In this document: in pieces, positions 1 through 11,706 of the stretch
Layout of the letters: every line of letters starts with the position of its first letter
Position numbering within the stretch: the first letter of the stretch is position 1
Assembly: GCA_016182085.1 (NCBI GenBank)
Contig: JACOYB010000005.1
Location: 1,013 to 65,012 of the forward strand
Length of the DNA: 64,000 bases
Direction: 5' to 3'
Origin: Candidatus Magasanikiibacteriota bacterium
Lineage (GTDB): Bacteria > Patescibacteriota > Patescibacteriia > Magasanikbacterales > GWA2-37-8
Made by a program: the position numbers and the translations under genes
Notes under the pieces: model-generated
What the model was told of the DNA's origin: nothing
Database searches by the model: none
The model's input: only the letters and a program-made list of their open reading frames with translations

Positions 1-855
1 CAACTGTTTTTCAGGATTCGACTCTTTTTCAACATATTCAGAAATATCTGGAGTCACGGCATAGAGCGACTTAAACAACACCTTCTCTTCACCCATCTTT
101 CGTACCAACTTACTATAGTAACCTTTAGATACCGTGCAATCAGCATCAATAAAATCAATGATCGATTTAAGCTCGTCAGGATTAGCATTATTTTTTTGCG
201 CCTTTTTTAGCCTTTCCAAAGCAATATGCCCACCAATATTGCGTGCCTGACCTCCAGGATTATATTTATCATCTACAGCAAACATTTCGCTACTTGCATC
301 TATAGGAAAAATTTTAACACCAGACTCTACACATTCTTTAAAAATAGTTTTTTCATGCTCTGTTAACCCAAGCTGGCTAAGTTTTTCCCGCACACCGATT
401 ATAATTTCATCCAAAGCACCGCCTTCGATAAATTCTCTTTGAGCTATCTGTAATAAACGCAAACAGCGTAGGGTATTTTGATTTTCTTGAAAAGACGGCG
501 TATTACTTTTAGCATCTTCAGTTCGATTATTAATTACATAAAGCGTCTCCGATGAAATCTTAGTGTGAGCGCCTGCTTCATGACTAAGAGATTGTAATAG
601 ACGCCAAAAATTATTATTTTGCAATTCTCTATAAGCAGGGACAACTGTAACCACCTGCAGTTTATTATCTACCTCGGGTAGGTAATCTCCATACTTTGTA
701 ATGATATCATCATGGACGCGTTTAAATTCTCTTTGCCTTCTTTCCAAAAATGGTTTTCTCCAATCATAAAAATCACCTGATGAAATTGGTTCAGGTATTT
801 CTGAATTATGGCTGCCATTACTCATCGCGAAGTTTTGTTCTGGTGATCTGATCAT
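1..855 (-). CDS. Partial GT2-family glycosyltransferase. The N-terminal part is present and the C-terminus lies beyond the left edge.
   Basis: The reverse-strand ORF starts near 855 (ATG) and runs off the window. The translation contains a GT2-like N-terminal motif (LQVVTVVPAYRE) and a DxD-like IDADC. No stop codon occurs before position 1. Confidence 0.35.
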   Translation of the reverse strand, partial: MIRSPEQNFAMSNGSHNSEIPEPISSGDFYDWRKPFLERRQREFKRVHDDIITKYGDYLPEVDNKLQVVTVVPAYRELQNNNFWRLLQSLSHEAGAHTKISSETLYVINNRTEDAKSNTPSFQENQNTLRCLRLLQIAQREFIEGGALDEIIIGVREKLSQLGLTEHEKTIFKECVESGVKIFPIDASSEMFAVDDKYNPGGQARNIGGHIALERLKKAQKNNANPDELKSIIDFIDADCTVSKGYYSKLVRKMGEEKVLFKSLYAVTPDISEYVEKESNPEKQL

Positions 856-919: not shown

Positions 920-1100
920 CAATTTATTTACAGCGGAATACGATAAACTTGATTGGTTAGCCAAAAGGGGCTGGGGAATCCTGTCCGATTTTGGTGGATT
1001 TACGACGGTGCAGCGGGGATACGAAAAGTTACGAGGGGAATTTACGGAATAGGACGGGCGGAAGGAGGGGTTGGGGGAGGAATTCCGCCCGCCCACCGGT
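920..1100 (+). repeat. IR-A, the left inverted repeat of the defense island. It consists of a remnant of the recombinase 3' coding end (about 30 codons) followed by an 88-bp GC-rich core.
   Basis: Positions 1011-1098 are the reverse complement of 9983-10070 with 1 mismatch in 88 nt. Positions 938-1010 translate to FTAEYDKLDWLAKRGWGILSDFGGFTTVQ, which resembles the recombinase C-terminus encoded at 11555-11634. Confidence 0.8.
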
Positions 1101-1137
1101 GTGCTTTTTGACGATTTCAAGTTTTTCTTAACCTTCC

Positions 1138-1686
1138 CTATTTATAAAATAACTCATGATTACGAAGTTCTTTTTTTATATCTAAATAATTTGGAAGTGC
1201 TTCCTCAACTAAAGACCAGAATTTTCTGGAGTGATTAAATTCCTTCAAATGGCACATCTCGTGCACTATAATATAATCCTGGTGTTTTTGCGATAAAAAC
1301 ACTATTTTATAATTCAAATTTAGATTGTGCTTGCATGAACAACTACCCCAGCGAGTCTTTTGATTTTTAATAAAGATTTTATTGAACGAAAAACCATACA
1401 CCTTATTATAAAATGCAACTCGTTCATTCACAAGAGCAAATGCTTTATCTTTATTTTCTAGATAATCCTTGTTCGAAAAAGTGCGTATAGCCCTACTATC
1501 CACGCTCTTAAAAAATTGTATTTTGTCCCACACCCATTGTTTTTTATCGGTAATAAATTTTTCAATTATCGATTGCTGAACCCCAAAAGGACTCGTAATC
1601 ACAACACTTCCGTCACAATAGACCGCGAGACGCATTCGTTTTGCTCGCTTGCTTCTTTTGAGTTTATAGGGGATTTTCTTTTCCAT
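1138..1686 (-). CDS. YgjP-like (DUF45/WLM-type) zinc metallohydrolase. This family is commonly encoded next to hsdR.
   Basis: The HEMCH zinc-binding motif is present. The protein is 182 aa and lies immediately downstream of hsdR on the same strand. Confidence 0.55.
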   Translation of the reverse strand: MEKKIPYKLKRSKRAKRMRLAVYCDGSVVITSPFGVQQSIIEKFITDKKQWVWDKIQFFKSVDSRAIRTFSNKDYLENKDKAFALVNERVAFYNKVYGFSFNKIFIKNQKTRWGSCSCKHNLNLNYKIVFLSQKHQDYIIVHEMCHLKEFNHSRKFWSLVEEALPNYLDIKKELRNHELFYK

Positions 1687-1691
1687 ACGCT

Positions 1692-4607
1692 CTAGAATTT
1701 TTTAGTGATTATATCCACCAACCTATTCAAGAATTTCGGAAAATCTTTTACAACAAACCTGCCTTTATAATCTCGTAATATTATCTCCTGCAGCGTTTGT
1801 TTGATATCCTTTATAAAAACATCCCTCTTTGAGGATTCCTGCCACCCAGCATCAAGATCATCCTCTATACGAATTCGCAACTCCTTCACAAACTTTTTAA
1901 TCTCCTCATCTTTTCCACCTTCAATGAATTCCTGCGAGATTACATAGAGCGCGTACTCTTTTAAATCAAGCCCCAAATCTTTCGCTTCGCCCCCTTTTGT
2001 TCGGATATCTCTCATCAATTCTTCATACCGACGAATTCGTTCAGCAAGATCAATCTGATTCTGTTCAAACTCTTTACGAATAGCGGTAAGTCGCTCGCTG
2101 AACTTCTGGTAGGCTGGATTTTCATCTAGGTTGATTGAAATTTCTTGCTTGAGCATTTTCTCAAGATTCAATGCCTTTTCTTCCTCATCCATCCCTTTTA
2201 ATCGCTCGAGCGTATATAAATCATTCACGCGAAGTTCACGAAAATTCTTAGTGATTCCTTCATAATCAATAATATTACTTTTTTGAATTAATTCTCTAAC
2301 TTTCTCACCGTATTCTTCCAGTAAATATCTGTCGTCTTCACTTCGAAAATGTTTCAAAAATGCTAAATAAAAACTCGTTACCCACTCAAACTGGCGAATA
2401 TACTGCTTCAAGAATGGATCAGGCGATAAAAACTCAAACAAACTCTTGAGCTTCATATATTTCTCAACAAAGTATTTTTGTTTGTCTTGATTATCCATAA
2501 AAATCTTCAAGCATCGGCGAAGGTTATCCATCGACGGATCTTCGATATTCACTCCTGTAAATATCTTCATCATATCATTCAATACGTCCACAAATCTCTC
2601 TTTCACCCGTTCAATATCAATCATCGCTGAATCTATAACATCCTCATCAAAATCAAGCGCATCATACAAATTTCTTGTAATTCCATAATAATCAATAATT
2701 TTTCCCGCTTCTTTGTTTTTATACACACGATTTGTACGCGCAATCGCCTGCAAAAGGTTGTGGTCACGAAGTGGTTTATCGAGATACATCACCTGCTCTA
2801 TAGGCGCATCAAAGCCAGTAAGCAACATGTCGCACACTAAAAGAAATTTCAAAGACGATTTTGGATCTTTGAATCGTTCAATAATTTGTTCGCGTTCACG
2901 CTTGCTAGTGTTATACACTTTCAAATCATCAGCATCGCTATTTGGATCTCCTGGCGAATACACCACGGCTGACCATTCGGTAGGAATAAACTTATCAAGC
3001 AATTTCTTATAAGTCGCCACAGCTTCGCGGTCATACGCTACAATCTGCGCCTTAAAGCCATTTGGCTCAACATAGAGCTTGTAATGTTCAATAATGTCCC
3101 TTGCAACGGCTTCCATGCGTTTTGGCAATTTAACCAAAGCCGCTTTCTTACCATATTTCTTCACCAACTCGGTTTTTTGTTTATCTGGCAAATCTCCGGC
3201 AATTTCTTCAAACTTCTGATCAAGTTTTTCTTCATCAATAGAAAACTTAGAAAGTCGCGCTTCATAAGTCACCGGGATTGTCGCTCCGTCATCAATAGCT
3301 TGCTGAATGGAATAATAATCCAAATACCGTTTTCCCTCACCTTCATAATTTCGGAAAGTGTTTGTATGTGTTTTATCCACCGGAGTACCAGTGAATCCAA
3401 AGAAGAATGCTTTTTTAAACGCATTACGCATATTGATACCCGATACGCCCTCGTCGCCACGGTGTGCTTCGTCAGAAAGAATAATCACATTCTCGTCTAG
3501 ATTTTGTACTTTATCACCAAGTTCGGAAAACTTTTGAATGGTCGTGATGAAAATACCTTTCTCTGGTGATTGAATTTTTAGCTCTAAATCCTTACGAGAA
3601 GTGACACGAACAATATTTTTTCCTCCCGCATTAGTAAATGTTTCAAATATCTGATCGTCCAAATCTACGCGATCAACCAAAATAAACACCTTCGGATTAG
3701 CAAGTTGTTTATTGAAACGCAATTTCCATGCCGTAAAATACATTGTAAGCGTCTTGCCCGATCCTTGCGTATGCCAAATAAGCCCTTGTCGTTTTTCTTT
3801 ATTCACAACACGCTCCACAATTTTATTTGTTGCTCTCATTTGCTGATAGCGAGCCATTTTCTTCACCAATCTTTCTTTTTCTTTTTCAAATAAAATAAAG
3901 TTTTGAACGATATCCAAAAAGTTTGCTTTAGAGAGTAATGAAAAAAGTGTCATCTCCAGTTCTCCGCCTAGTTCTTTTTCGGCATTCTCATCACGCCACT
4001 GAAGAAAATATTGTTTTGGCGTACCGGTTGCACCGTAAACAGTTTTGAGCCCGTCACTGGCGATATTGAAACAGTTTGGAATAAATAATTTACGAGCAAC
4101 TTTTTCATATCGTTTTATTTGGTCAATACCATTCTCAAAACTAACTCCTTCGGAAGCTGTCGGACTTTTGGCTTCAATATCCACGAGCGGAAACCCGTTC
4201 ACAAAAATGATAATATCCGGACGAATATTTTCGGTGTCGCCTTCAAAATAGAACTGATTAGTAACGACAAATTGATTATTTTCCGGATTGTCAAAATCAA
4301 GCAGTTTGTAATCGTGCTTTTTTCCTGTAGATGAATTCTTAAGGTTGATCCCATCTCGTAATACTTTCAAAAAAGCTTCGTTGTTATCAATTTTTCTCAC
4401 CTCGCGAATCACATTCTTGATCTCGCTTTCGTTCGCAGTAGGATTGAGGGCAGAAAGCGCGCGTTCCAAAAGCGGAGTGGTGATGTATTCCGTCTCAAGT
4501 TCGCGATACTTCACAAACTCCTCCGGCTTTATATACTCAAAACCAAGCTTATCTTTAATAAACTTGATGATGTAATTTTCGATTGTAACTTGTTCGTTGA
4601 ATTTCAT
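1692..4607 (-). CDS. hsdR: Type I restriction enzyme R subunit (HsdR)
   Basis: The protein is 971 aa with helicase motifs (GSGKT Walker A, DEAH box in ILSDEAHRG). Its start overlaps the hsdS stop by 4 bp. Confidence 0.9.
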   Translation of the reverse strand: MKFNEQVTIENYIIKFIKDKLGFEYIKPEEFVKYRELETEYITTPLLERALSALNPTANESEIKNVIREVRKIDNNEAFLKVLRDGINLKNSSTGKKHDYKLLDFDNPENNQFVVTNQFYFEGDTENIRPDIIIFVNGFPLVDIEAKSPTASEGVSFENGIDQIKRYEKVARKLFIPNCFNIASDGLKTVYGATGTPKQYFLQWRDENAEKELGGELEMTLFSLLSKANFLDIVQNFILFEKEKERLVKKMARYQQMRATNKIVERVVNKEKRQGLIWHTQGSGKTLTMYFTAWKLRFNKQLANPKVFILVDRVDLDDQIFETFTNAGGKNIVRVTSRKDLELKIQSPEKGIFITTIQKFSELGDKVQNLDENVIILSDEAHRGDEGVSGINMRNAFKKAFFFGFTGTPVDKTHTNTFRNYEGEGKRYLDYYSIQQAIDDGATIPVTYEARLSKFSIDEEKLDQKFEEIAGDLPDKQKTELVKKYGKKAALVKLPKRMEAVARDIIEHYKLYVEPNGFKAQIVAYDREAVATYKKLLDKFIPTEWSAVVYSPGDPNSDADDLKVYNTSKREREQIIERFKDPKSSLKFLLVCDMLLTGFDAPIEQVMYLDKPLRDHNLLQAIARTNRVYKNKEAGKIIDYYGITRNLYDALDFDEDVIDSAMIDIERVKERFVDVLNDMMKIFTGVNIEDPSMDNLRRCLKIFMDNQDKQKYFVEKYMKLKSLFEFLSPDPFLKQYIRQFEWVTSFYLAFLKHFRSEDDRYLLEEYGEKVRELIQKSNIIDYEGITKNFRELRVNDLYTLERLKGMDEEEKALNLEKMLKQEISINLDENPAYQKFSERLTAIRKEFEQNQIDLAERIRRYEELMRDIRTKGGEAKDLGLDLKEYALYVISQEFIEGGKDEEIKKFVKELRIRIEDDLDAGWQESSKRDVFIKDIKQTLQEIILRDYKGRFVVKDFPKFLNRLVDIITKKF

Positions 4608-5746
4608 ATATTTGTTCGTACTACCCCACTCAACAAGTCCTGCATTAGGCCTTTCTTGAGGAGAGTAAGTTTTTCTTTTAATTTTTTATTGACCAAAATC
4701 TTTTTATCAACTGCGGAAAGAATTTCTGCAATCTCTTTTATTTCAGAGGTTTTTTTTGGCTTCGGTATTGGTATCATAAAAAGTCGATCCTTATTTAACT
4801 TCGGTTGAGTCATCCCCGTTAGATACGGCCCCAGATTAAGCATATTCAAATAATCTTGGACATATTGTTGTAAAAATTTATCTTCAAATCTTTGAATATG
4901 TGCATGATTATTCACCCAATACTTACCAGTTGCAGTAAAAGCAATAGGATAATTTCTATCTTTAAGATTCGCGCCATCTTCCGAAATTAGTAATAACGTT
5001 TCTTCAAAAATATAATCACTAACATAATCAACGATGCCTGTTGCGCCGTAGTAGGGATATTGTCCAGTGCTTCTTTTTGATTTAGTTATCGGAATGCGTT
5101 TGTTATCCAAGTTTTTAGAAATATCTTCCAAGCTCAACACATCCCACTCTTCCGGAATCTGTCCGATTTTTGTCTCCTTAAATTTTGTATGCCCAATCCC
5201 GCGAGTAAAAAGCTGTTGCATCAATCCGCGCTTGAGCTTTTCTGTCGCCTCAATCACTTCCTGCGTTTTCGCAATATCCTCATCCACCGCTCCCAAAATT
5301 TCGGCAATTTTTTGTTGTTCAGGGAACGGCGGAACCAACACTTCCAAATTCTGATATTGCGATATGTAGAATCGTTTATGACTTCCAGTAGGAAAATTAA
5401 CAGATTTCATTTTTGCATAAAAAAATCGCAAATCCACATCAGATCTTTTTTCTTTCAAAATTTTAATAGCTGATGACTTTATTTTAAACGGAAAATCAAC
5501 AAACTTACTATCAGTTGTAAAATCATCAAAGATGATTACTGGAAGATTTTTATAAACCCCAAAATCTTCATCCGTATAACCCAATACAAAAGACTTATTT
5601 GCCGTAAGTACGGGGGTCTTTGCTTTGTCGCTATAACTTGTACTTTTAACGATATAATTATCGGGACGCTCATAACCCAAAATATCGCTCAATTTTTTAA
5701 GCGACCACCCTTTTGGAATATTTTGTTGTGTGATGTTAGTTTTCAT
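4604..5746 (-). CDS. hsdS: Type I restriction-modification specificity subunit (HsdS)
   Basis: The protein is 380 aa with two target-recognition-domain halves and conserved central and C-terminal coiled regions (LKRGLMQQL / LKKGLMQDLL repeats). Confidence 0.8.
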   Translation of the reverse strand: MKTNITQQNIPKGWSLKKLSDILGYERPDNYIVKSTSYSDKAKTPVLTANKSFVLGYTDEDFGVYKNLPVIIFDDFTTDSKFVDFPFKIKSSAIKILKEKRSDVDLRFFYAKMKSVNFPTGSHKRFYISQYQNLEVLVPPFPEQQKIAEILGAVDEDIAKTQEVIEATEKLKRGLMQQLFTRGIGHTKFKETKIGQIPEEWDVLSLEDISKNLDNKRIPITKSKRSTGQYPYYGATGIVDYVSDYIFEETLLLISEDGANLKDRNYPIAFTATGKYWVNNHAHIQRFEDKFLQQYVQDYLNMLNLGPYLTGMTQPKLNKDRLFMIPIPKPKKTSEIKEIAEILSAVDKKILVNKKLKEKLTLLKKGLMQDLLSGVVRTNI

Positions 5747-5748
5747 AC

Positions 5749-6648
5749 CTAACTATCAATTCTAATAATCTTAGACGCGTGATTTGGATCTTCGGTTTTC
5801 TCCTGAATTGTAAGTTGTCTATAATACCTACAAGAATATCTTAAATAATCTTCTAACTCATCCAGATCTATATTGCCCTTCTTCAAATCAACGGGGTAGA
5901 TTGAAATAATCAATTTCTCACAGATATTAAGTGTTTTAGAAGTTTCTACATAACTTGCAATGATTTCCTTGATTGATCCTGTGCGAGATAAGTAAGAGTC
6001 CCTTCCATGTTGAGTATTAATCAGTGGAATAGTGACTGCGCTATCCTTAGCAGATTCCAATGCAACGTAAGACCACAGTCCATTCAGGGCTTGAATAAAA
6101 TCATCAATTTCAGATTTCACTCGATTATTACCATTTTTTACAGAATTCACTACGAGATAAAACTTTTTTCCATTTTGCTCAACTTCAATTGTTTTTCCAA
6201 CATCATGGTTAGTCCCAATAGACAACTTAGCGGAAATATCAGTATTTAAGTGTTCGGTTTTTCCATTGTAAAATTTCTGAATTACTTGATTCTGAATACT
6301 ATTTGCCTTTTGAACATTCCCCCCAAGAGACATATCAAATTGATCATTTACAGGGACCACAAGAGCACCTTTATTTTCAAAAGCATCGCCGACTCTGATT
6401 TCCAGAAAATTATCTTTACCGCGCAAGTGATAACCAAAGTGTGATTTCGGTTTATTTTTTACAATAGCAAATAGAAGGATAATAATAAAAACAAAGGCGA
6501 AAACATCAACTTTTTTTAGATAAACATCGGCAGAACCTGCTGTGCTATAACTGGCAATCTCTACAAATAGCCAAAAGATACCTACAAATGACACAAGGTC
6601 CACTAAAATAAATTTCCATTTTTTTATCCACCTCTTTAATAAACTCAT
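5749..6648 (-). CDS. Two-TM N-terminus plus a Macro-like domain protein. It is a candidate type II Thoeris ThsA-like effector.
   Basis: There are two N-terminal hydrophobic helices (residues ~12-32 and 45-63). The soluble domain carries a macro-like motif, GDAFENKGALVVPVNDQFDMSLGGNV. The gene overlaps the upstream TIR-like gene by 4 bp. Confidence 0.45.
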   Translation of the reverse strand: MSLLKRWIKKWKFILVDLVSFVGIFWLFVEIASYSTAGSADVYLKKVDVFAFVFIIILLFAIVKNKPKSHFGYHLRGKDNFLEIRVGDAFENKGALVVPVNDQFDMSLGGNVQKANSIQNQVIQKFYNGKTEHLNTDISAKLSIGTNHDVGKTIEVEQNGKKFYLVVNSVKNGNNRVKSEIDDFIQALNGLWSYVALESAKDSAVTIPLINTQHGRDSYLSRTGSIKEIIASYVETSKTLNICEKLIISIYPVDLKKGNIDLDELEDYLRYSCRYYRQLTIQEKTEDPNHASKIIRIDS

Positions 6649-7148
6649 AGCCCTAGATTTTTATAAGTTTCTTCATTATACCTGTAAGCTCCTGATTTTC
6701 TCTCTCCTCTATATTTTTTATCCAACATCTCCCACTCATCTAACGCTTTTGCAATAATTTTTTGGTTAAAACTAACGTGCACAGCCAACTCATCAACAAG
6801 AGTTGCCGGACAAAGACTTCCATCCTTATACCTTTTTCCATTCAGATTTATAACAATAATTGGCAAACTTCTTTTAACAGCTTGTTCGACCTCCCAGAGT
6901 ACAAACTTACGAAGCAATTTTGTTTTTTCACCGACAAGCAAGACAAAAACTTTCGTATTTTGGAGTCTTTCACGAAGCTTGGCTTTAATTGTTTCCTCGC
7001 TTGCCCATGACATTAAATTATTTAAATCATGAGCATCATAAAAGTTAAATGGTGTATTATCATTTTGCTTCCATGCTTGCATCAGCCGATAATAACGAAT
7101 GTCATTATCGGCATCAAACGCAACATAAGTTTTATTTGTGTAGGCCAT
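6645..7148 (-). CDS. TIR-like (DUF1863 / ThsB-like) protein
   Basis: The protein is 167 aa. Its N-terminal YVAFDADNDIRYYRLMQAW and central KVFVLLVGEKTKLLRKFVLWEVEQA match the TIR-like DUF1863 pattern (FSFHYE..D, VLIGS.T..S.WV..EI). Confidence 0.55.
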   Translation of the reverse strand: MAYTNKTYVAFDADNDIRYYRLMQAWKQNDNTPFNFYDAHDLNNLMSWASEETIKAKLRERLQNTKVFVLLVGEKTKLLRKFVLWEVEQAVKRSLPIIVINLNGKRYKDGSLCPATLVDELAVHVSFNQKIIAKALDEWEMLDKKYRGERKSGAYRYNEETYKNLGL

Positions 7149-7175
7149 ATATTTTTAATATTTTAATTCTAAAAA

Positions 7176-7988
7176 TTATTCCCCACTTTCAATATTCTTT
7201 ACCTTCTTAGACTTCTTTATTCTCGTATGCGCCTTTCCTATCGCGTCCGGCGTTGGCAGATGTTCCGGCATAGTGCCGCCAAGGCTAGCAATGGTGTTGC
7301 GAACTTTTTGACCAACTTCATAATGCGCCAGGCTAGCGTTAGTTTGACCTTGTATATTTTCGCGCTTTATTTTTGCATCAGTTTGAGTGGCGCGAAATAA
7401 GTTGGCTGCTAACTCTTCACTATTCATGTGGTCTAAAATCTTTTGCGACTTCTTCAATCCCTTTTTTTCATGAATATCCTGCATTGTTAGTCCGCCATAC
7501 AAACCTTTATAGCCATAATTCTGGAAAATTGCATAGTTTTCTACCCCTGCTATAGCCGCGGTTTTAGTTAATGCCGTATTGTGTTTTTTCATTTCTTCAC
7601 GCAAATAAACACGACTATGATCTTCAATCAAATTATCAGTTTTTTCTTGGCGTCGGGTCTGAATTGCAAAATAGGTTTGACCTTTAGCAACCACAACCTT
7701 GGTTGGGTCGGAATTTTGCACTATCAAATAACAGGCGTACCGAGATAAATATATGGTATCTATCGGCCTTTCTGCTCCAGAGCCAATCTGGACCATTTCG
7801 TCCATATGGACAAAATGGTTGTGGATAACTTCCCCGCTATTTTCACAAGCAATTTGCGCTTTATCAATAACATTCTGAAATTTACGATAGTCTGGATACT
7901 CTAAAGCCTTGGCCAAATCACGTGAAGACCAATATTCCGCACCATTATTATCTATTCTTTTTATTGATTCAAAGGTATTGTCTGCCAT
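7176..7988 (-). CDS. dinD: DinD-like (DNA-damage-inducible protein D / Bro-N-like) protein
   Basis: The N-terminal FESIKRIDNNGAEYWSSRDLAKALEYPDYRKFQNVIDKAQIAC and the following YLSRYACYLIVQNSDP resemble the DinD family. Confidence 0.5.
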   Translation of the reverse strand: MADNTFESIKRIDNNGAEYWSSRDLAKALEYPDYRKFQNVIDKAQIACENSGEVIHNHFVHMDEMVQIGSGAERPIDTIYLSRYACYLIVQNSDPTKVVVAKGQTYFAIQTRRQEKTDNLIEDHSRVYLREEMKKHNTALTKTAAIAGVENYAIFQNYGYKGLYGGLTMQDIHEKKGLKKSQKILDHMNSEELAANLFRATQTDAKIKRENIQGQTNASLAHYEVGQKVRNTIASLGGTMPEHLPTPDAIGKAHTRIKKSKKVKNIESGE

Positions 7989-7993
7989 ATTAT

Positions 7994-9679
7994 TTAGTAG
8001 TTTAATTCTTTTAAATAGCCTGCAACTTTTTTGTCGGCTGCTTCACGCTCTTTTTCAATCTCCTTCACCTCGCTCCACACTGTTTTCACATCCACCACTT
8101 CCTCATCCTCGCCGTTTTCTACATAGCGTCGCACATTGAGATTAAACTCGTTTTCCTTTAGCTCTTTGATATCCACAACTCGAGCGTATTTTTCAATATC
8201 TCGGTAGCCCTCAAACGCCAACACCATTTTTTCTATATCTTTTTTTCGTAAGCGGTTCTGGTTTTTTCCTTCCTCAAAATCTTGTTCGGCATCAATGATG
8301 AGAATTTTGTTCTTGTGACCCTCTGGTTTATTTTTGTTAAATATCACAATTGCTGCCGGAATACCCGTACCATAAAAAAGTTTTGCAGGAAGAGCAATGA
8401 TGGCTTCGATTAAATCGTTTTTGATAAGATTTTCGCGGATACGACCTTCTGCGCCACCACGGAAAAGCACACCGTGTGGAAGCACGATTCCGGCACGGCC
8501 ATTTTCGTTCATTGATTTCACCATGTGAAGCACGAAAGCATAATCGGCTTTTTTGGCTGGAGGCATTTCGTAGCCGGCAACTCGGCCGTATTTATCATGT
8601 TTAAATATTTCGTATTCCCATTCACTTATAGAATACGGAGGATTAGCAACGCAGATGTCGAACGTCTTCAGCGAACCGTCTGGGTTTAGAAACTTCGGAT
8701 CAGCGAGCGTGTCTCCACGCTGAATGTCGGCACTATCAAGCCCGTGTAGGAACATGTTAATCTTTGCGATTGCATATGTCCCGATATTAATTTCCTGTCC
8801 ATAAAGATAAAGCGAACGGGCTTTTTTGTCTCCCTCTTGGTCTTTTAGATGATGATACGCCTCCAAAAGGAAGCCTCCAGAGCCAACAGCCATGTCATAT
8901 ATATGATCCTTCTCGTGCGGCTTTAAGATGCTAATAATCACACGCTCAACTTCGCGTGGAGTGTAGAATTCTCCACCTTTTTTACCGGCATCCGCCGCAA
9001 ATTGCTCGATTAGATATTCGTACGCATCGCCAAGAAGATCAGAACTGATATAATTGTCTCCAAAATTAAATTGTGAGAAGTGATTTATAAGGCGCTGGAT
9101 TGTTTCATTTGGAAATTTATCTTTATTTGCAAAATCTAGATCATCAAAAATCTTGTCGAGCTTTGGACTATTTGCATTTGTGAGCTTATCAAAAATCCCG
9201 TTTAGTTTATGGCCGATTCCTTCGGCTTGTTTTTGAATTACTTCCCATCGGCAATCTTTTGGAACTTGAAAACGGTGATTGTGGTCTGCGCGCGCAATTT
9301 CTTCATCGTGATATTCTTCTAAAACTTTTTTATACTCTTCATCCCATGAGTCACTAATGCGTTTGTAAAAAAGAAGCCCAAAAATATATTTTTTATAATC
9401 CGAACTATCTATCTTCCCGCGCAAAATATCGGCGCTTCTCCAAAGAAATTGCTTGAGTTGAGTTAGATTCATCTTTCCTTCATCATCTGCGCTAGGAACA
9501 CCGAGCTCTTTTATAATGCTTTTATCGTTTGCGATACGCTCAATATCTTCGGGTTTATATTTTCGATCTTTTCGAGGGCCAACTCGCAAAGGAGTAATGA
9601 GGCCCCTTTTTTCCCAGTTACGAAGAGTGTCTTGATGAATTCCAAATATTTTCGAAACTTCGCTGATTGAGAGTAACAT
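7994..9679 (-). CDS. hsdM: Type I RM DNA methyltransferase (HsdM), with an N-terminal MerR/excisionase-like HTH extension
   Basis: The NPPY catalytic motif (VANPPYSISEW) and the HsdM N-terminal domain (MNLTQLKQFLWRSADILRG) are present. The first ~65 aa (SISEVSKIFGIHQDTLRNWEKRGLI) look like a MerR-type HTH fused in-frame. Confidence 0.85.
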   Translation of the reverse strand: MLLSISEVSKIFGIHQDTLRNWEKRGLITPLRVGPRKDRKYKPEDIERIANDKSIIKELGVPSADDEGKMNLTQLKQFLWRSADILRGKIDSSDYKKYIFGLLFYKRISDSWDEEYKKVLEEYHDEEIARADHNHRFQVPKDCRWEVIQKQAEGIGHKLNGIFDKLTNANSPKLDKIFDDLDFANKDKFPNETIQRLINHFSQFNFGDNYISSDLLGDAYEYLIEQFAADAGKKGGEFYTPREVERVIISILKPHEKDHIYDMAVGSGGFLLEAYHHLKDQEGDKKARSLYLYGQEINIGTYAIAKINMFLHGLDSADIQRGDTLADPKFLNPDGSLKTFDICVANPPYSISEWEYEIFKHDKYGRVAGYEMPPAKKADYAFVLHMVKSMNENGRAGIVLPHGVLFRGGAEGRIRENLIKNDLIEAIIALPAKLFYGTGIPAAIVIFNKNKPEGHKNKILIIDAEQDFEEGKNQNRLRKKDIEKMVLAFEGYRDIEKYARVVDIKELKENEFNLNVRRYVENGEDEEVVDVKTVWSEVKEIEKEREAADKKVAGYLKELNY

Positions 9680-9711
9680 ATTAATTTTTGACTATTTTTT
9701 TAATTTTTCTT

Positions 9712-9741
9712 ATGATATCATAGGTCTGTATGAATTGTCAA
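9712..9741 (-). promoter_or_regulatory. Candidate sigma70-like promoter for the hsdM operon
   Basis: On the minus strand, TTGACA is followed by an 18-nt spacer and TATCAT, about 35 nt upstream of the hsdM ATG. Confidence 0.35.
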
Positions 9742-9859
9742 GGAATAATCAAAAATTCATATATTTTCATAGGTTTGATAGGGAGTTCCTACCTCCTCCG
9801 AGCGCGCACGGGTGGGCGGGGCAAGCGCGGAGAAAAGAAAAGTTTGCTTTTGGCCACCG

Positions 9860-9940
9860 TAAAGTTCGAGCCTATAATCGAAATGAGTGAGTGAAATATT
9901 TTGCTTGCAAAATTGTTTCCGAGCGAATGAGTTTATATCT
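9860..9940 (+). repeat. Dispersed intergenic repeat family, copy a
   Basis: CGAAATGAGTGAG, a hairpin, then CGAGCGAATGAGTTTATAT. Confidence 0.6.
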
Positions 9941-9982
9941 TAATATTTTTTTACAGGTTGTTTGGCAGTTTTTAAAAAGCGC

Positions 9983-10145
9983 ACTCGCCTAGGCGAGGCG
10001 GGCGGAATTCCTCCCCCAACCCCTCCTTCCGCCCGTCCTATTCCGTAAATTCCCCTCGTAATTTTTCGTATCCCCGCTGCGAAAACCGAAATGGGGTTAA
10101 AATTGGTAAAATCCCCCAACCTTTTTTGGCTAACCAATCAAATTT
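9983..10145 (-). repeat. IR-B, the right inverted repeat of the defense island (inverted copy of IR-A)
   Basis: The 88-bp core matches IR-A with 1 mismatch. The outer part begins GATTGGTTAGCCAAAA, as IR-A does, and then diverges (~70% identity). Small palindromes sit at the inner ends (CACCGGTG in A, CTCGCCTAGGCGAG in B). Confidence 0.8.
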
Positions 10146-10206
10146 TTTGCCTTTGTCCGCTCGGCGGACGCCAAAAGCAAACTTTTCTAATATAATGTAA
10201 TTTTAT

Positions 10207-11694
10207 ATGGCCAAATACTTTTTGTACGCTCGCAAGTCTAGCGAATCGGAAGAGCGTCAGGTTATGTCGATTGACGCTCAAATCGACGAGTTAAAAGAAT
10301 TTGCCGTCAAAGAAAAACTTGAAATCGTCGCCTCGCTTTGCGAGGCAAAAACTGCCAAACAACCTGGCCGAACTTTGTTCGGCGAAATGTTATCGCGAAT
10401 TGATGCCGGCGAGGCCGACGGCATTTTGGCTTGGCACCCCGACCGCCTAGCCCGCAACAGCGTGGATGGCGGTCGGATAATATATATGTTGGACACTGGT
10501 AAAATAAATTCCCTCAAATTTCCAACGTTTTGGTTTGACAACACACCGCAAGGAAAGTTTATGCTTAATATTTCTTTCGGCCAAAGCAAATATTATGTAG
10601 ATAATCTAAGTGAAAATGTGAAACGTGGAATAAGGCAAAAACTCCGCAAAGGAATTTGGCCGGGGAAAGCTCCGTTTGGATATAATAATGACCTGCGCCA
10701 TCACACCATACTCCCCGACCCCGAAAAGCATAAACTTGTAAAAAGGATTTTTGAATTATATGCGACCGGCGAATATACTTTTGAACAACTAATACAAAAA
10801 TTTGATATTCGTACTAAGACGAACAAAATAATGATGCCGGGCGACATGCAACATATTCTCAAAAATCCTTTTTACAGCGGCGTGTTTCGTTTCAACAACG
10901 AACTCCACCAGGGTACGCATAAACCGATAATAACAAAGAAACTTTTTGACGATGCCCAAGCGGTAATGGCAGCCAGAGGAAAACGCCGCAAGAAAAGCAG
11001 TCATGGATATATTTTTACCGACCTAATGAGTTGCGGGAATTGTGGCCGAGCCATTACCGCCGAAAAGCAAAAAGGTCATGTTTATTATCGCTGTACAAAG
11101 AAACGAACTAACTGCGATGAAAAATATATCCGCGAGGAAGAACTGCTAAGCCAGTTTAGAGACACATTACAAAAAGTTTCTTTGTCAGACGACTGGACCA
11201 AAAATTTGCTTGCTAAACTGGACGAGGAGCAAGCATCCGCAATCCAGTCGTCTAGCGTCCTTGTTCAGGCCGTAGAAGGACAAATAATGCCCATTAAGAC
11301 TAAGATGGACAAACTCCTTGATTCCCATTTAGACGGCATTATTGATAAACAAGATTACGTAAACAAAAAAGAAAAACTCCTAAATGAAAAACTTGATCTG
11401 GAAGCCAAAATTAAAGAAGTGAGGAACAAGGGCAACGATTGGCTCGAACCGATGAGGGAATTTATTTTAGACAGTTGCCAAGCCAAAAAAATCGCCGCGA
11501 ACGGCGATTCTCTTCAAATTCGAACATTTCTTAAAAAAATAGGCTCGAACTTTACGGTGAAAGGCAAAAAATTTGATTGGTTAGCGAAAAGGGGCTGGAA
11601 AATTATGCCCGATTTTGGCCGGTTTCCGACTGTGCAGGCCCGCTCGGATTCGAACCGAGAACCTCGGTTTTGGAGACCGATGTTTTACCATTGA
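10207..11694 (+). CDS. Large serine recombinase (resolvase catalytic domain, recombinase domain and zinc ribbon)
   Basis: The N-terminal YARKSS..SIDAQ contains the catalytic Ser region. Cys-rich CGNCG...YYRC and coiled-coil segments are present. The protein is 495 aa. The 3' end overlaps tRNA-Trp on the opposite strand, so the true stop may lie earlier. Confidence 0.85.
   Translation: MAKYFLYARKSSESEERQVMSIDAQIDELKEFAVKEKLEIVASLCEAKTAKQPGRTLFGEMLSRIDAGEADGILAWHPDRLARNSVDGGRIIYMLDTGKINSLKFPTFWFDNTPQGKFMLNISFGQSKYYVDNLSENVKRGIRQKLRKGIWPGKAPFGYNNDLRHHTILPDPEKHKLVKRIFELYATGEYTFEQLIQKFDIRTKTNKIMMPGDMQHILKNPFYSGVFRFNNELHQGTHKPIITKKLFDDAQAVMAARGKRRKKSSHGYIFTDLMSCGNCGRAITAEKQKGHVYYRCTKKRTNCDEKYIREEELLSQFRDTLQKVSLSDDWTKNLLAKLDEEQASAIQSSSVLVQAVEGQIMPIKTKMDKLLDSHLDGIIDKQDYVNKKEKLLNEKLDLEAKIKEVRNKGNDWLEPMREFILDSCQAKKIAANGDSLQIRTFLKKIGSNFTVKGKKFDWLAKRGWKIMPDFGRFPTVQARSDSNREPRFWRPMFYH
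11573..11634 (+). repeat. Copy C of the island repeat. It is the intact recombinase 3' end, abutting the tRNA-Trp 3' terminus.
   Basis: The 62 nt are ~80% identical to 950-1011 (direct orientation). Similarity stops exactly at the tRNA-Trp discriminator base. Confidence 0.7.
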
Positions 11695-11706
11695 AACTAC
11701 AGGCCT
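11635..11706 (-). tRNA. tRNA-Trp (anticodon CCA)
   Basis: The sequence folds as a cloverleaf: acceptor AGGCCTG/CGGGCCT, anticodon loop CTCCAAA, T-loop TTCGAAT. It closely resembles E. coli tRNA-Trp. Confidence 0.85.

What the first reader, a model, noticed from the sequence alone, without database searches (positions are those of the whole stretch)
1138..9741. Type I RM operon with a type II Thoeris-like TIR + TM-Macro pair and a DinD-like gene inserted between hsdM and hsdS
Seven genes are packed on one strand, with 2-6 bp gaps or 4-bp overlaps. A single candidate promoter lies upstream of hsdM. The order is hsdM, dinD-like, TIR-like (DUF1863), 2TM+Macro-like, hsdS, hsdR, YgjP-like hydrolase. 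Placing a NAD+/ADPR-signalling abortive-infection pair (TIR producer plus TM-Macro effector, as in type II Thoeris) inside a type I RM transcription unit would couple restriction with a signalling defense in one co-regulated cassette. Such a composite RM-Thoeris operon is not a standard described architecture. DinD-like proteins have no assigned defense role, and one sits directly upstream of the TIR gene here. The trio DinD-TIR-Macro could be a three-gene module.
Basis: partly seen in the sequence, partly recalled or inferred. Interest (0 to 1): 0.75.

Follow-up and report, generated by a model that had tools for sequence, protein, structure and literature searches.

The report
Thoeris cassette nested in restriction operon
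A candidate-phylum bacterium carries a complete two-gene type II Thoeris anti-phage system nested inside a type I restriction-modification operon; this is a new example of an already described habit of defence genes, not a new kind of system.

Summary
Seven intact genes lie head-to-tail on the minus strand (1138-9679) behind one strong promoter-like site. The order is HTH-hsdM, dinD-like, thsB, thsA, hsdS, hsdR, ygjP-like. The 167-aa protein is an EcThsB2-type TIR-like ThsB. The 299-aa protein has two TM helices and a Macro domain whose model best matches solved ThsA Macro structures. The pair is therefore a type II Thoeris.

The proposed DinD-TIR-Macro module is refuted. A sister operon (L038, 92-94% identical HsdM, DinD, HsdR, YgjP) keeps dinD but has other genes in place of thsB-thsA. 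DinD accompanies only 2 of 18 RM-flanked thsBA clusters.

thsB-thsA is a mobile two-gene cassette. In at least 11 of 26 well-flanked clusters of this clade it sits beside RM genes. It occupies M|S, S|R and R|M junctions and one type III system. The state changes at least 9 times on the ThsA tree, and the pair also occurs alone.

Defence genes embedded in type I RM are already documented (PrrC, DarTG2, TgvAB, 'guilt-by-embedding'). This is a new member of a known kind.

The whole operon is cargo in an inverted-repeat-flanked slot beside a serine recombinase and tRNA-Trp. Sister genomes hold other defence cargo there.

The parts
9712..9741 (-). Promoter-like site of the operon (TTGACA-18-TATCAT, TG-extended)
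   Evidence: 11 of 12 matches, the best on this strand. It lies inside the cassette shared with L038, which has TTGACA-17-TAGAAT at the same place.
9716..9776 (-). Cluster of five TATGAW/WTCATA hexamers around the promoter; candidate operator for the HTH on HsdM (inferred)
   Evidence: 5 hexamers in 121 nt against 0.39 expected, and 0 of 5000 shuffles reach 5. The tandem TATGAA pair upstream of -35 is conserved in L038.
7994..9679 (-). hsdM, type I methyltransferase subunit with an N-terminal MerR/HTH_17 helix-turn-helix (residues 1-51)
   Evidence: N6_Mtase 1.6e-109, HsdM_N 1.9e-26, TIGR00497 292 bits (cut-off 242.75), MerR_1 3.8e-12. Motifs DMAVGSGGF and NPPY are present. The same fusion is called in L038.
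7176..7988 (-). DinD-family gene (Bro-N N-terminal domain); accessory gene of the RM backbone, PADLOC candidate PDC-S13
   Evidence: NF008573 369 bits (cut-off 242). PDC-S13 1e-111, and it matches the N-terminus of a DinD-HsdS fusion model at 1.5e-95. It is 93% identical in L038, which lacks thsBA.
7155..7169 (-). 15-nt relic of an hsdM 3' end (GAATTAAAATATTAA) directly upstream of thsB
   Evidence: identical to the last 15 nt of L038 hsdM and unique in the window. In L025 the same sequence continues into a 35-codon hsdM pseudogene remnant.
6645..7148 (-). thsB, TIR-like signal-producing sensor of type II Thoeris (EcThsB2 / subfamily-9 type)
   Evidence: PF08937 1.6e-19. PADLOC ThsB 4e-72 over the full length; 8v6t 1.7e-32. 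Y8, W26, H40, D41, E86, Y157 and Y162 are invariant across 19 clade members and EcThsB2.
5749..6648 (-). thsA, effector with two N-terminal TM helices (about residues 13-33 and 46-64) and a C-terminal Macro domain (about 83-251)
   Evidence: PF20016 1.1e-28. PADLOC ThsA 1.2e-38; hydropathy. AF2 pLDDT 81.5, and the top PDB matches are 8v6q, 8v6r, 8r66 and 8v6s (TM 0.76-0.78).
4604..5746 (-). hsdS, specificity subunit with two target-recognition domains
   Evidence: Methylase_S 7.5e-28 in 2 stretches. Only the conserved central and C-terminal parts match L038 hsdS, so the specificity differs.
1692..4607 (-). hsdR, restriction/translocase subunit
   Evidence: HSDR_N, SWI2_SNF2, T1R_D3-like and T1RH-like_C; TIGR00348 566 bits. 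GSGKT, DEAH, QAIARTNR and the D..E-A-K nuclease motif are present.
1138..1686 (-). YgjP-like HExxH metallopeptidase gene, last gene of the cassette
   Evidence: PF01863 2.3e-41. HEMCH at residue 142. A YgjP-like gene also follows hsdR in L004, L029, L038 and L096.
927..1131 (.). Left arm of the cargo slot
   Evidence: From left to right it holds a copy of the recombinase 3' end (927-1013), the 84-nt element (1010-1093), and an exact reverse complement of recombinase codons ~35-41 (1110-1129). The arm is conserved at the cargo border in L122 and L123.
9785..10206 (.). Right arm of the cargo slot
   Evidence: It holds inverted fragments of the recombinase gene (9855-9875 and 9954-9973), an inverted 84-nt element (9997-10080, 99% identical to the left copy), and an inverted copy of the recombinase 3' end (10081-10159). 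It is conserved in L122 and L123.
10207..11694 (+). Large serine recombinase, divergent from the operon; its 3' end reads into tRNA-Trp
   Evidence: Resolvase, Recombinase and Zn_ribbon_recom; phrog_95 integrase 1.5e-79. Homologues of 93% and 80% identity sit at the same chromosomal site with other cargo.
11634..11706 (-). tRNA-Trp, first of a four-tRNA cluster that marks the conserved chromosomal side of the slot

Best explanation
The region is a horizontally mobile, promoter-to-stop type I restriction-modification cassette. It comprises HTH-HsdM, HsdS and HsdR plus the accessory DinD-like and YgjP-like genes. In its variable slot upstream of hsdS it carries a self-contained type II Thoeris cassette, thsB-thsA.

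Proposed working (the biochemistry is inferred from characterised homologues):
1. The HsdM2S complex methylates the host, and HsdR2M2S cuts unmethylated incoming DNA.
2. Phages that get past restriction are sensed by the TIR-like ThsB.
3. ThsB converts NAD+ into a histidine-ADPR-type signal.
4. The signal is bound by the Macro domain of membrane-anchored ThsA.
5. ThsA then oligomerises and, through its two TM helices, perturbs the membrane or arrests growth.

The two systems act independently and in layers. They are linked because they are inherited, transferred and very probably transcribed together from the promoter at 9741-9712. That promoter may be autoregulated by the HTH fused to HsdM. 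DinD belongs to the RM backbone, not to Thoeris. The whole cassette is itself cargo in an inverted-repeat-flanked slot next to a large serine recombinase and tRNA-Trp, which serves as a defence hotspot in related genomes.
For: Identity of the parts:
- Profile hits above curated cut-offs for HsdM, HsdR and DinD, and strong Pfam and PADLOC hits for HsdS, ThsB, ThsA and YgjP.
- Catalytic motifs are intact.
- ThsB: 1.7e-32 to solved EcThsB2, with the catalytic Glu (E86), the active-site Tyr (Y8) and the two tail tyrosines invariant (PMC11204291).
- ThsA: two hydrophobic helices. The AF2 model (pLDDT 81.5) has ThsA Macro domains as its eight best PDB matches, including the His-ADPR complex 8r66.
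- Profile alignment to 8r66 puts clade-invariant D88, S169 and R216 on the ligand contacts D100, S194 and R240 (bioRxiv 10.1101/2024.01.03.573942).
- A thsA+thsB2 pair alone protects E. coli (bioRxiv 10.64898/2026.01.22.701046).

Independence and mobility of the cassette:
- thsB-thsA are adjacent in all 59 clusters examined.
- 18 clusters are flanked by RM genes, at M|S, S|R and R|M junctions of different type I families and once between type III mod and res.
- 15 well-flanked clusters have no RM gene.
- At least 9 state changes occur on the ThsA tree.
- The sister operon L038 shares DNA with window 9777-7156 and 4615-1139 but has orf115-hsdS-orf279 in the slot.
- The closest thsBA (L025, 85% DNA identity over window 7180-5736) sits behind an hsdM pseudogene remnant. 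The window keeps a 15-nt hsdM relic.
- GC3 of thsB, thsA and hsdS (0.28-0.32) is below that of hsdM, dinD and hsdR (0.37-0.38).

Co-transcription: spacings of -4 to +27 nt, one outstanding promoter, and no intergenic terminator-like site.

Cargo slot: L122 and L123 share the arms and the chromosomal synteny but carry PDC-S02, or a type III RM with a Schlafen/AlbA-like gene.
Against: - Nothing here is experimental. Transcription, methylation, restriction, signal chemistry and phage protection are all inferred.
- EcThsB2, the closest solved ThsB, showed no NADase activity in vitro (PMC11204291), and the signal made by this ThsB subfamily has not been identified directly.
- ThsA is only about 20% identical to the characterised Macro effectors.
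- One type II system causes growth arrest without membrane-death markers (bioRxiv 10.64898/2026.01.22.701046), so the effector outcome is uncertain.
- Internal promoters cannot be excluded. The scan finds several weaker minus-strand sites inside the operon.
- The high share of RM-flanked loci (at least 42%) could reflect functional coupling rather than mere linkage.
Confidence: 0.8

Rival explanations
1. Guard-type coupling, as in PrrC/EcoprrI. The Thoeris pair is not merely a passenger. It is kept silent by, or monitors, the type I RM complex and fires when a phage anti-restriction protein disables it. Under this view, nesting is selected for mechanistic reasons.
For: An unusually large share of this thsBA clade is RM-flanked. 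It is 11 of 26 clusters with at least 1.5 kb on both sides and 18 clusters in all. This is a lower bound, because a tblastn panel was used. Even the closest non-embedded relative (L025) is a decayed RM locus. Precedent: PrrC (cited in bioRxiv 10.1101/2024.01.29.577857).
Against: The cassette sits at three different junctions, in unrelated HsdR families (HindI-like and EcoEI-like C-termini) and in a type III system. Fifteen well-flanked clusters have no RM neighbour. The state flips at least 9 times on the tree. E. coli thsA+thsB2 works without any RM partner (bioRxiv 10.64898/2026.01.22.701046). A conserved protein-protein partnership is hard to reconcile with such varied partners.
Confidence: 0.1
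2. One reading: DinD, ThsB and ThsA form one three-gene signalling module, with DinD as an extra sensor or regulator.
For: The genes are adjacent in the window, and the same order occurs in one distant locus (L017, Omnitrophota). A Bro-N/AntA-type gene lies upstream of thsB in L029-31.
Against: L038 has DinD (93% identical) in the same place without thsBA. L004, L026-28, L096, L008, L014, L089 and others have thsBA in RM operons without DinD. Only 2 of 18 RM-flanked clusters have DinD. DinD homologues number more than 8000 and occur solo next to housekeeping genes. DinD-HsdS fusions tie it to RM instead (PMC4996451). The hsdM relic between dinD and thsB shows that thsB once followed hsdM directly.
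Confidence: 0.03
3. Adjacent but separately expressed units. thsB-thsA, and perhaps dinD, have their own promoters, so that restriction and Thoeris are not co-regulated.
For: The 27-nt AT-rich spacer before thsB is the only real gap. Several weaker promoter-like hexamer pairs occur on the minus strand within dinD and thsB. In stand-alone loci the pair must carry or borrow a promoter.
Against: The 27-nt spacer is largely the hsdM relic and shows no -35/-10 pair above the scan threshold. The 4-nt overlaps and 2-5-nt gaps elsewhere suggest translational coupling. There are no terminator-like sites in the gaps. This rival can hold alongside read-through from the main promoter.
Confidence: 0.15
4. 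A decaying or inactive locus. The RM or the Thoeris genes are relics kept only by linkage, as in L025, L015 and L017.
For: Relatives show decay: an hsdM pseudogene in L025, a frameshifted thsA in L017 and an interrupted thsA in L015.
Against: All seven window ORFs are full length with catalytic motifs intact. Identical copies were assembled from two other samples.
Confidence: 0.05

Closest known systems
Type II Thoeris (TM-Macro ThsA plus TIR ThsB): B. amyloliquefaciens Y2, E. coli CFT073 and ATCC 25922
   Same: Two-gene core. ThsB belongs to the EcThsB2/subfamily-9 type, with the catalytic Glu, the active-site Tyr and the C-terminal Tyr-bearing tail. ThsA has two N-terminal TM helices and a Macro domain whose fold and key ligand contacts (Asp, Ser, Arg) match the solved complexes.
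   Different: ThsA is only about 20% identical to the solved Macro domains and forms a separate clade found mainly in uncultured lineages. There is one ThsB, not two. The gene order is thsB then thsA with a 4-nt overlap. The pair is nested in an RM operon rather than standing alone.
Defence systems embedded in type I RM operons: PrrC in EcoprrI, DarTG2 in EPEC (RptR island), TgvAB in V. cholerae VPI-2, PADLOC 'guilt-by-embedding' candidates
   Same: An independent defence module sits between hsd genes on the same strand and shares the operon. Sister operons carry different cargo in the same slot, which is the 'recombination hotspot' described for DarTG2 (PMC12255303) and Btr190I (PMC4996451).
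   Different: The cargo is a TIR-signalling abortive or arrest system, which I did not find named in this position in the literature searched. The regulator is an HTH fused to HsdM rather than a separate RptR or C protein. Unlike PrrC, the cargo is not restricted to RM contexts.
DinD family / PADLOC PDC-S13
   Same: Full-length match above the NCBIfam equivalog cut-off, a Bro-N N-terminal domain, and a position between hsdM and hsdS as in other RM operons and in DinD-HsdS fusions (PMC4996451).
   Different: No function in defence has been shown. Here it is highly conserved (over 80% identity across more than 120 clusters) and is also found solo. No usable structure model could be obtained for its C-terminal part.
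Integrative defence islands / hotspots next to tRNA genes carried by large serine recombinases
   Same: A recombinase with Resolvase, Recombinase and Zn-ribbon domains lies beside a tRNA. The chromosomal flank is conserved and the defence cargo varies between close relatives.
   Different: The cargo is bracketed by about 150-nt inverted repeats (inner 84 nt 99% identical) that contain exact fragments of the recombinase's own coding sequence. This layout is not explained by standard attL/attR products.

Membership tests
Type II Thoeris | ThsB: TIR or TIR-like (DUF1863) protein with a catalytic glutamate | tested here: met
   PF08937 1.6e-19. PADLOC ThsB 4e-72 over the full length. 8v6t (EcThsB2) 1.7e-32. 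E86 aligns with the Glu of EcThsB2 'HEID' and is invariant in 20 sequences.
Type II Thoeris | ThsA: N-terminal transmembrane helices plus a C-terminal Macro domain (not SIR2-SLOG) | tested here: met
   Two 19-residue hydropathy peaks above 2.0, at about residues 13-33 and 46-64. PF20016 1.1e-28. AF2 model pLDDT 81.5, with top Foldseek PDB matches 8v6q, 8v6r, 8r66 and 8v6s, then MacroD/macroH2A.
Type II Thoeris | thsA and thsB encoded together as one locus | tested here: met
   4-nt overlap in the window. The genes are adjacent in every one of 59 clusters with both genes visible.
Type II Thoeris | The Macro pocket binds a His-ADPR-type signal made by ThsB from NAD+ | tested here: inconclusive
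   Profile alignment to 8r66 places invariant D88, S169 and R216 on contacts D100, S194 and R240 (bioRxiv 10.1101/2024.01.03.573942). Ligand production and binding cannot be tested with these tools.
Type II Thoeris | Confers phage resistance | not testable with these tools
   Needs heterologous expression and plaque assays.
Type I restriction-modification system | HsdM, HsdS and HsdR all present and intact | tested here: met
   TIGR00497 292 bits and TIGR00348 566 bits, both above cut-off. Methylase_S in 2 stretches. NPPY, DMAVGSGGF, GSGKT, DEAH and QAIARTNR motifs are present.
Embedded defence system ('guilt-by-embedding' sense) | Genes of one system nested between the genes of another multi-gene system, on the same strand | tested here: met
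   thsB-thsA lie between hsdM/dinD and hsdS. The same nesting recurs in 12 clusters flanked by RM genes on both sides.
PrrC-like RM-dependent guard | Cargo found almost exclusively inside type I RM loci, implying dependence on the RM complex | tested here: not met
   15 of 26 well-flanked clusters have no RM gene nearby. Junction and RM type vary, and there are at least 9 state changes on the tree.
DinD family (NF008573) / PDC-S13 | Full-length match to the family model above the curated cut-off | tested here: met
   369 bits against a cut-off of 242. PDC-S13 1e-111.
DinD family (NF008573) / PDC-S13 | SOS (LexA) regulation, as for E. coli dinD | not tested
   No LexA-box search was made. Here the gene has no promoter of its own within 5 nt of the hsdM stop.
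Proposed DinD-ThsB-ThsA three-gene module | The three genes co-occur across loci | tested here: not met
   DinD accompanies thsBA in the window and in L017 only. L038 has DinD without thsBA.
Large-serine-recombinase integrative element | Recombinase with Resolvase, Recombinase and Zn-ribbon domains at one end of variable cargo beside a conserved chromosomal flank | tested here: met
Large-serine-recombinase integrative element | Recognisable attL/attR pair and excision product | tested here: inconclusive
   Direct repeat 927-1013 / 11551-11637 (78%), and inverted repeats 945-1093 / 9997-10145. The layout does not fit a simple attP x attB product. No read-level data are available.

The most novel reading that the evidence does not exclude
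This ThsB/ThsA clade may be specialised for life inside restriction-modification operons. Its sensor would then respond to failure or inhibition of restriction, for example to DNA-mimic anti-restriction proteins or unrepaired restriction damage. RM plus Thoeris would form a wired two-layer circuit under one HTH-HsdM-controlled promoter, exchanged as cassettes through a recombinase-served, inverted-repeat-flanked slot.
Probability: 0.1. Interest if true: 0.7.

Novelty: new member of a known kind. Interest (0 to 1): 0.4.

Why it matters
The locus adds a TIR-signalling system to the list of defence modules that ride inside type I RM operons. It gives an unusually clean natural 'swap' series:
- the same RM backbone with and without the cassette;
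- the same cassette in other RM families;
- a decayed RM operon that kept the cassette.

This series supports the view that the hsdM-hsdS and hsdS-hsdR junctions are exchange points for defence cargo.

It also shows that a candidate-phylum (Patescibacteria) genome can stack restriction, a signalling arrest system and a candidate gene (DinD/PDC-S13) in 8.6 kb. The uncharacterised genes that occupy the same slots in relatives (L038 orf115 and orf279, the L016 HATPase_c_3 gene) become candidates for new defence functions.

For Thoeris biology it offers a compact, divergent ThsB2-type/ThsA pair in which the still unidentified signal of this ThsB subfamily could be tested.

Tried and rejected
- DinD function. 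There was no sequence match to any solved structure. The AF2 model is unusable outside the Bro-N domain (mean pLDDT 51), so no fold search was run. PHROGs gives only 'unknown function'.
- Literature. I found no paper on PDC-S13 and none naming Thoeris inside an hsd operon.
- hsdM lookup. The exact 561-aa HsdM is not on record in the contig index, probably because a different start was called. The fusion was confirmed through L038 instead.
- 84-nt inverted-repeat element. It matches no Rfam family. Its fold is not better than shuffles (z -1.3), although it contains a 12-bp GC hairpin. It was not found in any thsA- or dinD-derived locus.
- Integration model. I tried to explain the arms as the product of a circle integrating into a palindromic site. 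The expected halves of the 17-nt palindrome (10330-10346) are not at the junctions, so the model was dropped.
- A tRNA-derived att repeat was considered. The repeat ends exactly at the tRNA 3' end and is recombinase coding sequence, not tRNA.
- L038 alternative cargo. orf115 and orf279 gave no PADLOC hit and only a sub-threshold Trypco2 hit.

Full report
**1. Observation**

The window comes from a Candidatus Magasanikbacteria (Patescibacteria/CPR) metagenome-assembled genome, according to the name a source gives the identical ThsA protein.

ORF listing shows seven uninterrupted genes on the minus strand:
- hsdM 7994-9679
- a dinD-like gene 7176-7988
- a 167-aa gene 6645-7148
- a 299-aa gene 5749-6648
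- hsdS 4604-5746
- hsdR 1692-4607
- a ygjP-like gene 1138-1686

The spacings are +5, +27, -4, +2, -4 and +5 nt.

The strongest promoter-like site on that strand is 9741-9712, with 11 of 12 matches and a TG extension. That scan finds more sites than shuffles in general (47 against 34 +/- 5). It supports 'one outstanding candidate', not 'the only promoter'. No terminator-like site lies in an intergenic gap.

**2. Identity of the genes**

Pfam, NCBIfam and PADLOC agree.
- HsdM, HsdS and HsdR are complete. Their AdoMet, NPPY, Walker A, DEAH, motif VI and D..E-x-K motifs are present.
- HsdM carries an extra N-terminal MerR/HTH_17 helix-turn-helix (residues 1-51).
- The 270-aa protein is a full-length DinD-family member (369 bits, cut-off 242) with a Bro-N domain. 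It is PADLOC candidate PDC-S13 (1e-111). It also matches the N-terminal 261 positions of a PADLOC HsdS model, which means DinD-HsdS fusions exist.

The 167-aa protein is ThsB.
- It hits PF08937 at 1.6e-19 and a PADLOC ThsB model end to end at 4e-72.
- It matches the solved E. coli CFT073 EcThsB2 (8v6t) at 1.7e-32.
- An alignment of 19 clade members with EcThsB2 keeps Y8, W26, H40, D41, E86, Y157 and Y162 invariant.
- E86 aligns with the glutamate of EcThsB2. Y157 and Y162 correspond to the two tail tyrosines described for ThsB subfamily 9. That subfamily is found only with TM-Macro ThsA (PMC11204291).

The 299-aa protein is ThsA of the TM-Macro type.
- It has two hydrophobic helices at about residues 13-33 and 46-64.
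- It hits PF20016 at 1.1e-28.
- Its AlphaFold model (pLDDT 81.5) has as its eight best PDB matches the ThsA Macro domains 8v6q/8v6r (EcThsA), 8r66 (B. amyloliquefaciens ThsA with His-ADPR) and 8v6s (PcThsA). Target-normalised TM-scores are 0.76-0.78. Classical MacroD and macroH2A domains follow.
- A profile alignment to 8r66 places clade-invariant D88, S169 and R216 on D100, S194 and R240. These residues contact the adenine, the N-ribose and the histidine carboxylate of His-ADPR (bioRxiv 10.1101/2024.01.03.573942).

**3. Is DinD part of the Thoeris module? No.**

The decisive comparison is locus L038, found through a DinD homologue that is 93% identical.
- L038 has the same RM backbone. HsdM is 92% identical (also HTH-fused), DinD 93%, HsdR 94% and YgjP 93%.
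- Its DNA aligns with window 9777-7156 and 4615-1139.
- Between dinD and hsdR it holds orf115, a different hsdS and orf279 instead of thsB-thsA-hsdS.

DinD therefore stays with the backbone while the Thoeris pair is exchangeable.

Conversely, thsB-thsA occur in RM operons without DinD in L004, L008, L014, L026-28, L089, L090 and L096. Of 18 RM-flanked clusters, only the window and L017 have DinD. L029-31 have an AntA/Bro-type gene.

DinD has more than 8000 homologues. Those listed are over 80% identical, and many are solo next to rpoBC or other housekeeping genes. A dinD-hsdS fusion inside a type I operon whose S region had been replaced by recombination was described in Bibersteinia (PMC4996451).

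**4. What the Thoeris pair is: a mobile two-gene cassette with a taste for RM operons**

I fetched relatives of ThsA from reference genomes, from metagenomes and by exact-protein look-ups. I annotated their flanks with a panel of RM proteins and with Pfam.

After clustering ThsA at 95% identity there are 59 clusters.
- 18 clusters have an RM gene directly next to the pair on the same strand.
- 12 of those 18 are flanked by RM genes on both sides.
- 15 clusters have at least 1.5 kb on both sides and no RM gene.
- The remaining clusters are too short or visible on one side only.
- Restricting to clusters with at least 1.5 kb on both sides gives 11 of 26 (42%) embedded.

The 42% figure is a lower bound. 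Some loci scored as RM-free show an HsdS C-terminus just upstream (L075), and the panel can miss divergent RM genes.

The junction varies:
- hsdM|hsdS: window, L004, L017, L026, L029, L096
- hsdS|hsdR: L008, L082, L089
- hsdR|hsdM: L014
- between type III mod and res, together with a HATPase_c_3 gene: L016, Uhrbacteria

The HsdR families also differ, with HindI-like and EcoEI-like C-termini. On a neighbour-joining tree of ThsA, the embedded/not-embedded state needs at least 9 changes over 30 tips.

The hosts span Patescibacteria, Bacteroidales, Gammaproteobacteria, Zixibacteria, Calditrichia and Omnitrophota.

The closest relative (L025; ThsA 91%, ThsB 89%; DNA 85% over window 7180-5736) sits next to GmrSD. 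It is immediately preceded by a 35-codon hsdM pseudogene remnant and followed by an hsdS-like start.

In the window, the 27-nt spacer upstream of thsB contains GAATTAAAATATTAA (7155-7169). This sequence is identical to the last 15 nt of L038 hsdM and unique in the window. The cassette therefore once followed an hsdM gene of this family directly.

GC3 of thsB, thsA and hsdS (0.28-0.32) is lower than that of hsdM, dinD and hsdR (0.37-0.38). This fits a separate origin for the slot contents.

**5. How it most likely works**

Shown by sequence: all parts of a type I RM enzyme and of a type II Thoeris are present and intact, and the packing is compatible with one transcript.

Inferred from characterised homologues:
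- Restriction acts on unmodified DNA.
- ThsB senses infection and makes a histidine-ADPR-type molecule from NAD+.
- The Macro domain of ThsA binds the molecule.
- ThsA then oligomerises and acts through its TM helices (bioRxiv 10.1101/2024.01.03.573942; PMC11204291).

A thsA+thsB2 pair alone protects E. coli. It needs both TM helices and the conserved Trp of ThsB2, which corresponds to W26 here. It causes growth arrest without NAD+ loss (bioRxiv 10.64898/2026.01.22.701046).

I therefore regard the two systems as independent layers linked by inheritance and expression. Confidence is 0.8 for this overall picture and lower, about 0.7, for strict co-transcription.

The main rival is PrrC-like guard coupling. 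The high embedded fraction favours it. The variety of junctions and RM types, the many stand-alone loci and the E. coli result argue against it. I give it 0.1.

**6. Comparison with what is known**

Type II Thoeris is a known system, and membership is met on every feature testable here.

Nesting of independent defence systems in type I RM operons is also known:
- PrrC in EcoprrI.
- DarTG2 between hsdS and hsdR under the repressor RptR. [quoted passage not shown]
- TgvAB in Vibrio cholerae (PMC11411939).
- A systematic survey that derived the PDC candidates, including the family DinD belongs to (bioRxiv 10.1101/2024.01.29.577857).

I found no text naming Thoeris in that position. The specific combination is a new example, not a new principle. 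Hence 'new member of a known kind'.

**7. Surroundings**

The operon is itself cargo.

A large serine recombinase gene (10207-11694, plus strand) diverges from it and reads into tRNA-Trp. Homologues of 93% and 80% identity (L122, L123) sit at the same chromosomal place. The shared flank holds the tRNA cluster, a TPR protein, triose-phosphate isomerase, an M16 peptidase and a tRNA synthetase.

Sequence is shared with the window up to sharp borders at about 1131 and about 9785. Between the borders the contents differ:
- the window has the RM/DinD/Thoeris cassette, whose limits coincide with the L038-shared segment 1139-9777;
- L122 has PDC-S02 (2.9e-151) plus small unknown genes;
- L123 has a C-protein-like HTH and a type III RM with an embedded Schlafen/AlbA-HATPase_c_4 gene.

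The borders are inverted repeats, 945-1093 against 9997-10145. The inner 84 nt are 99% identical.

The repeats contain pieces of the recombinase gene:
- Two copies of its 3' end that preserve the reading frame. One of them (927-1013) is a direct repeat of the real 3' end, 11551-11637.
- Two exact 20-mers (1110-1129 and 9954-9973). These are reverse complements of recombinase positions 10310-10329 and 10347-10366, which flank a 17-nt palindrome in the intact gene.

I could not derive this layout from a simple attP x attB event. It is recorded as unexplained. All three cargos point away from the recombinase, so there is no sign of inversion polymorphism.

**8. Verdict**

The three-gene-module idea is refuted. 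The 'undescribed architecture' claim is only narrowly true.

The added value lies in three things:
- the natural swap series;
- the high and labile RM association of this Thoeris clade;
- the recombinase-served defence slot.

Interest is 0.4.

Noticed in passing
window 9527-9679 (HTH of HsdM) and 9716-9776 (promoter region): HsdM has an N-terminal MerR/HTH_17 domain fused to it, as does L038. The promoter region holds five TATGAW/WTCATA hexamers (0.39 expected; 0 of 5000 shuffles reach 5). A tandem pair upstream of -35 is conserved in L038. This suggests autoregulation of the whole operon by the methyltransferase subunit.
   Followed up: partly
window 927-1131 and 9785-10206; L122 5903-6031 and 9767-9940; L123 707-898 and 9796-9946: The operon is bracketed by about 150-nt inverted repeats (inner 84 nt 99% identical). 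These contain frame-preserving copies of the recombinase 3' end and exact 20-nt fragments of its 5' coding region. The same arms bracket different defence cargo in two sister genomes. The mechanism (cassette integration or exchange, inversion, or debris of tandem integrations) is unresolved.
   Followed up: partly
window 10207-11694 and 11634-11706: The large serine recombinase ORF overlaps tRNA-Trp by 61 nt on the opposite strand. Its last ~30 codons are the sequence repeated at 927-1013 and, inverted, at 10081-10159.
   Followed up: partly
window 7155-7169: A 15-nt relic identical to the 3' end of L038 hsdM sits between the dinD stop codon and the thsB start codon.
   Followed up: yes
L025 4353-5882: The closest thsB-thsA relative (85% DNA identity) sits behind a stop-containing 35-codon hsdM remnant and next to a GmrSD gene. 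This is an RM operon that decayed while the Thoeris cassette stayed intact.
   Followed up: yes
L016 5517-13654 (Candidatus Uhrbacteria): thsB-thsA and a 688-aa HATPase_c_3 protein lie between a type III mod gene and a type III res gene. This is embedding in a different RM type, together with a second embedded gene.
   Followed up: partly
L123 2860-9480: The sister recombinase slot carries a C-protein-like HTH, a type III Mod, a 488-aa SLFN_AlbA_2/HATPase_c_4 protein (which matches the N-terminal part of a PADLOC pAgo model) and a type III Res. This is another embedded gene inside an RM operon.
   Followed up: partly
L038 3573-3920 and 5162-6001: In the sister RM operon, the slot that holds thsB-thsA in the window contains orf115 (sub-threshold Trypco2) and, after hsdS, orf279 (no family). 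They are candidates for unknown defence genes by the embedding argument.
   Followed up: partly
protein P0119: A 469-aa protein carries both the ThsA_Macro and the ThsB_TIR Pfam domains. It may be a natural ThsB-ThsA fusion or a frameshifted call.
   Followed up: no
L015 10001-12181; L017 3787-4643: thsA is interrupted by a 404-aa ORF on the opposite strand in L015, probably an insertion sequence. It is frameshifted in L017. This indicates cassette decay in some lineages.
   Followed up: no
window 1138-1686; L004, L029, L038, L096: A YgjP-like HExxH metallopeptidase gene follows hsdR in several unrelated type I operons. It is a recurrent RM accessory of unknown role.
   Followed up: partly
window 1-822 (minus strand): The gene to the left of the slot runs off the window. 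It has no counterpart in L122 or L123, so the left chromosomal flank is not syntenic among the three genomes. L123 has a further copy of the 84-nt element 640 nt beyond its left arm, which hints at tandem slots.
   Followed up: no
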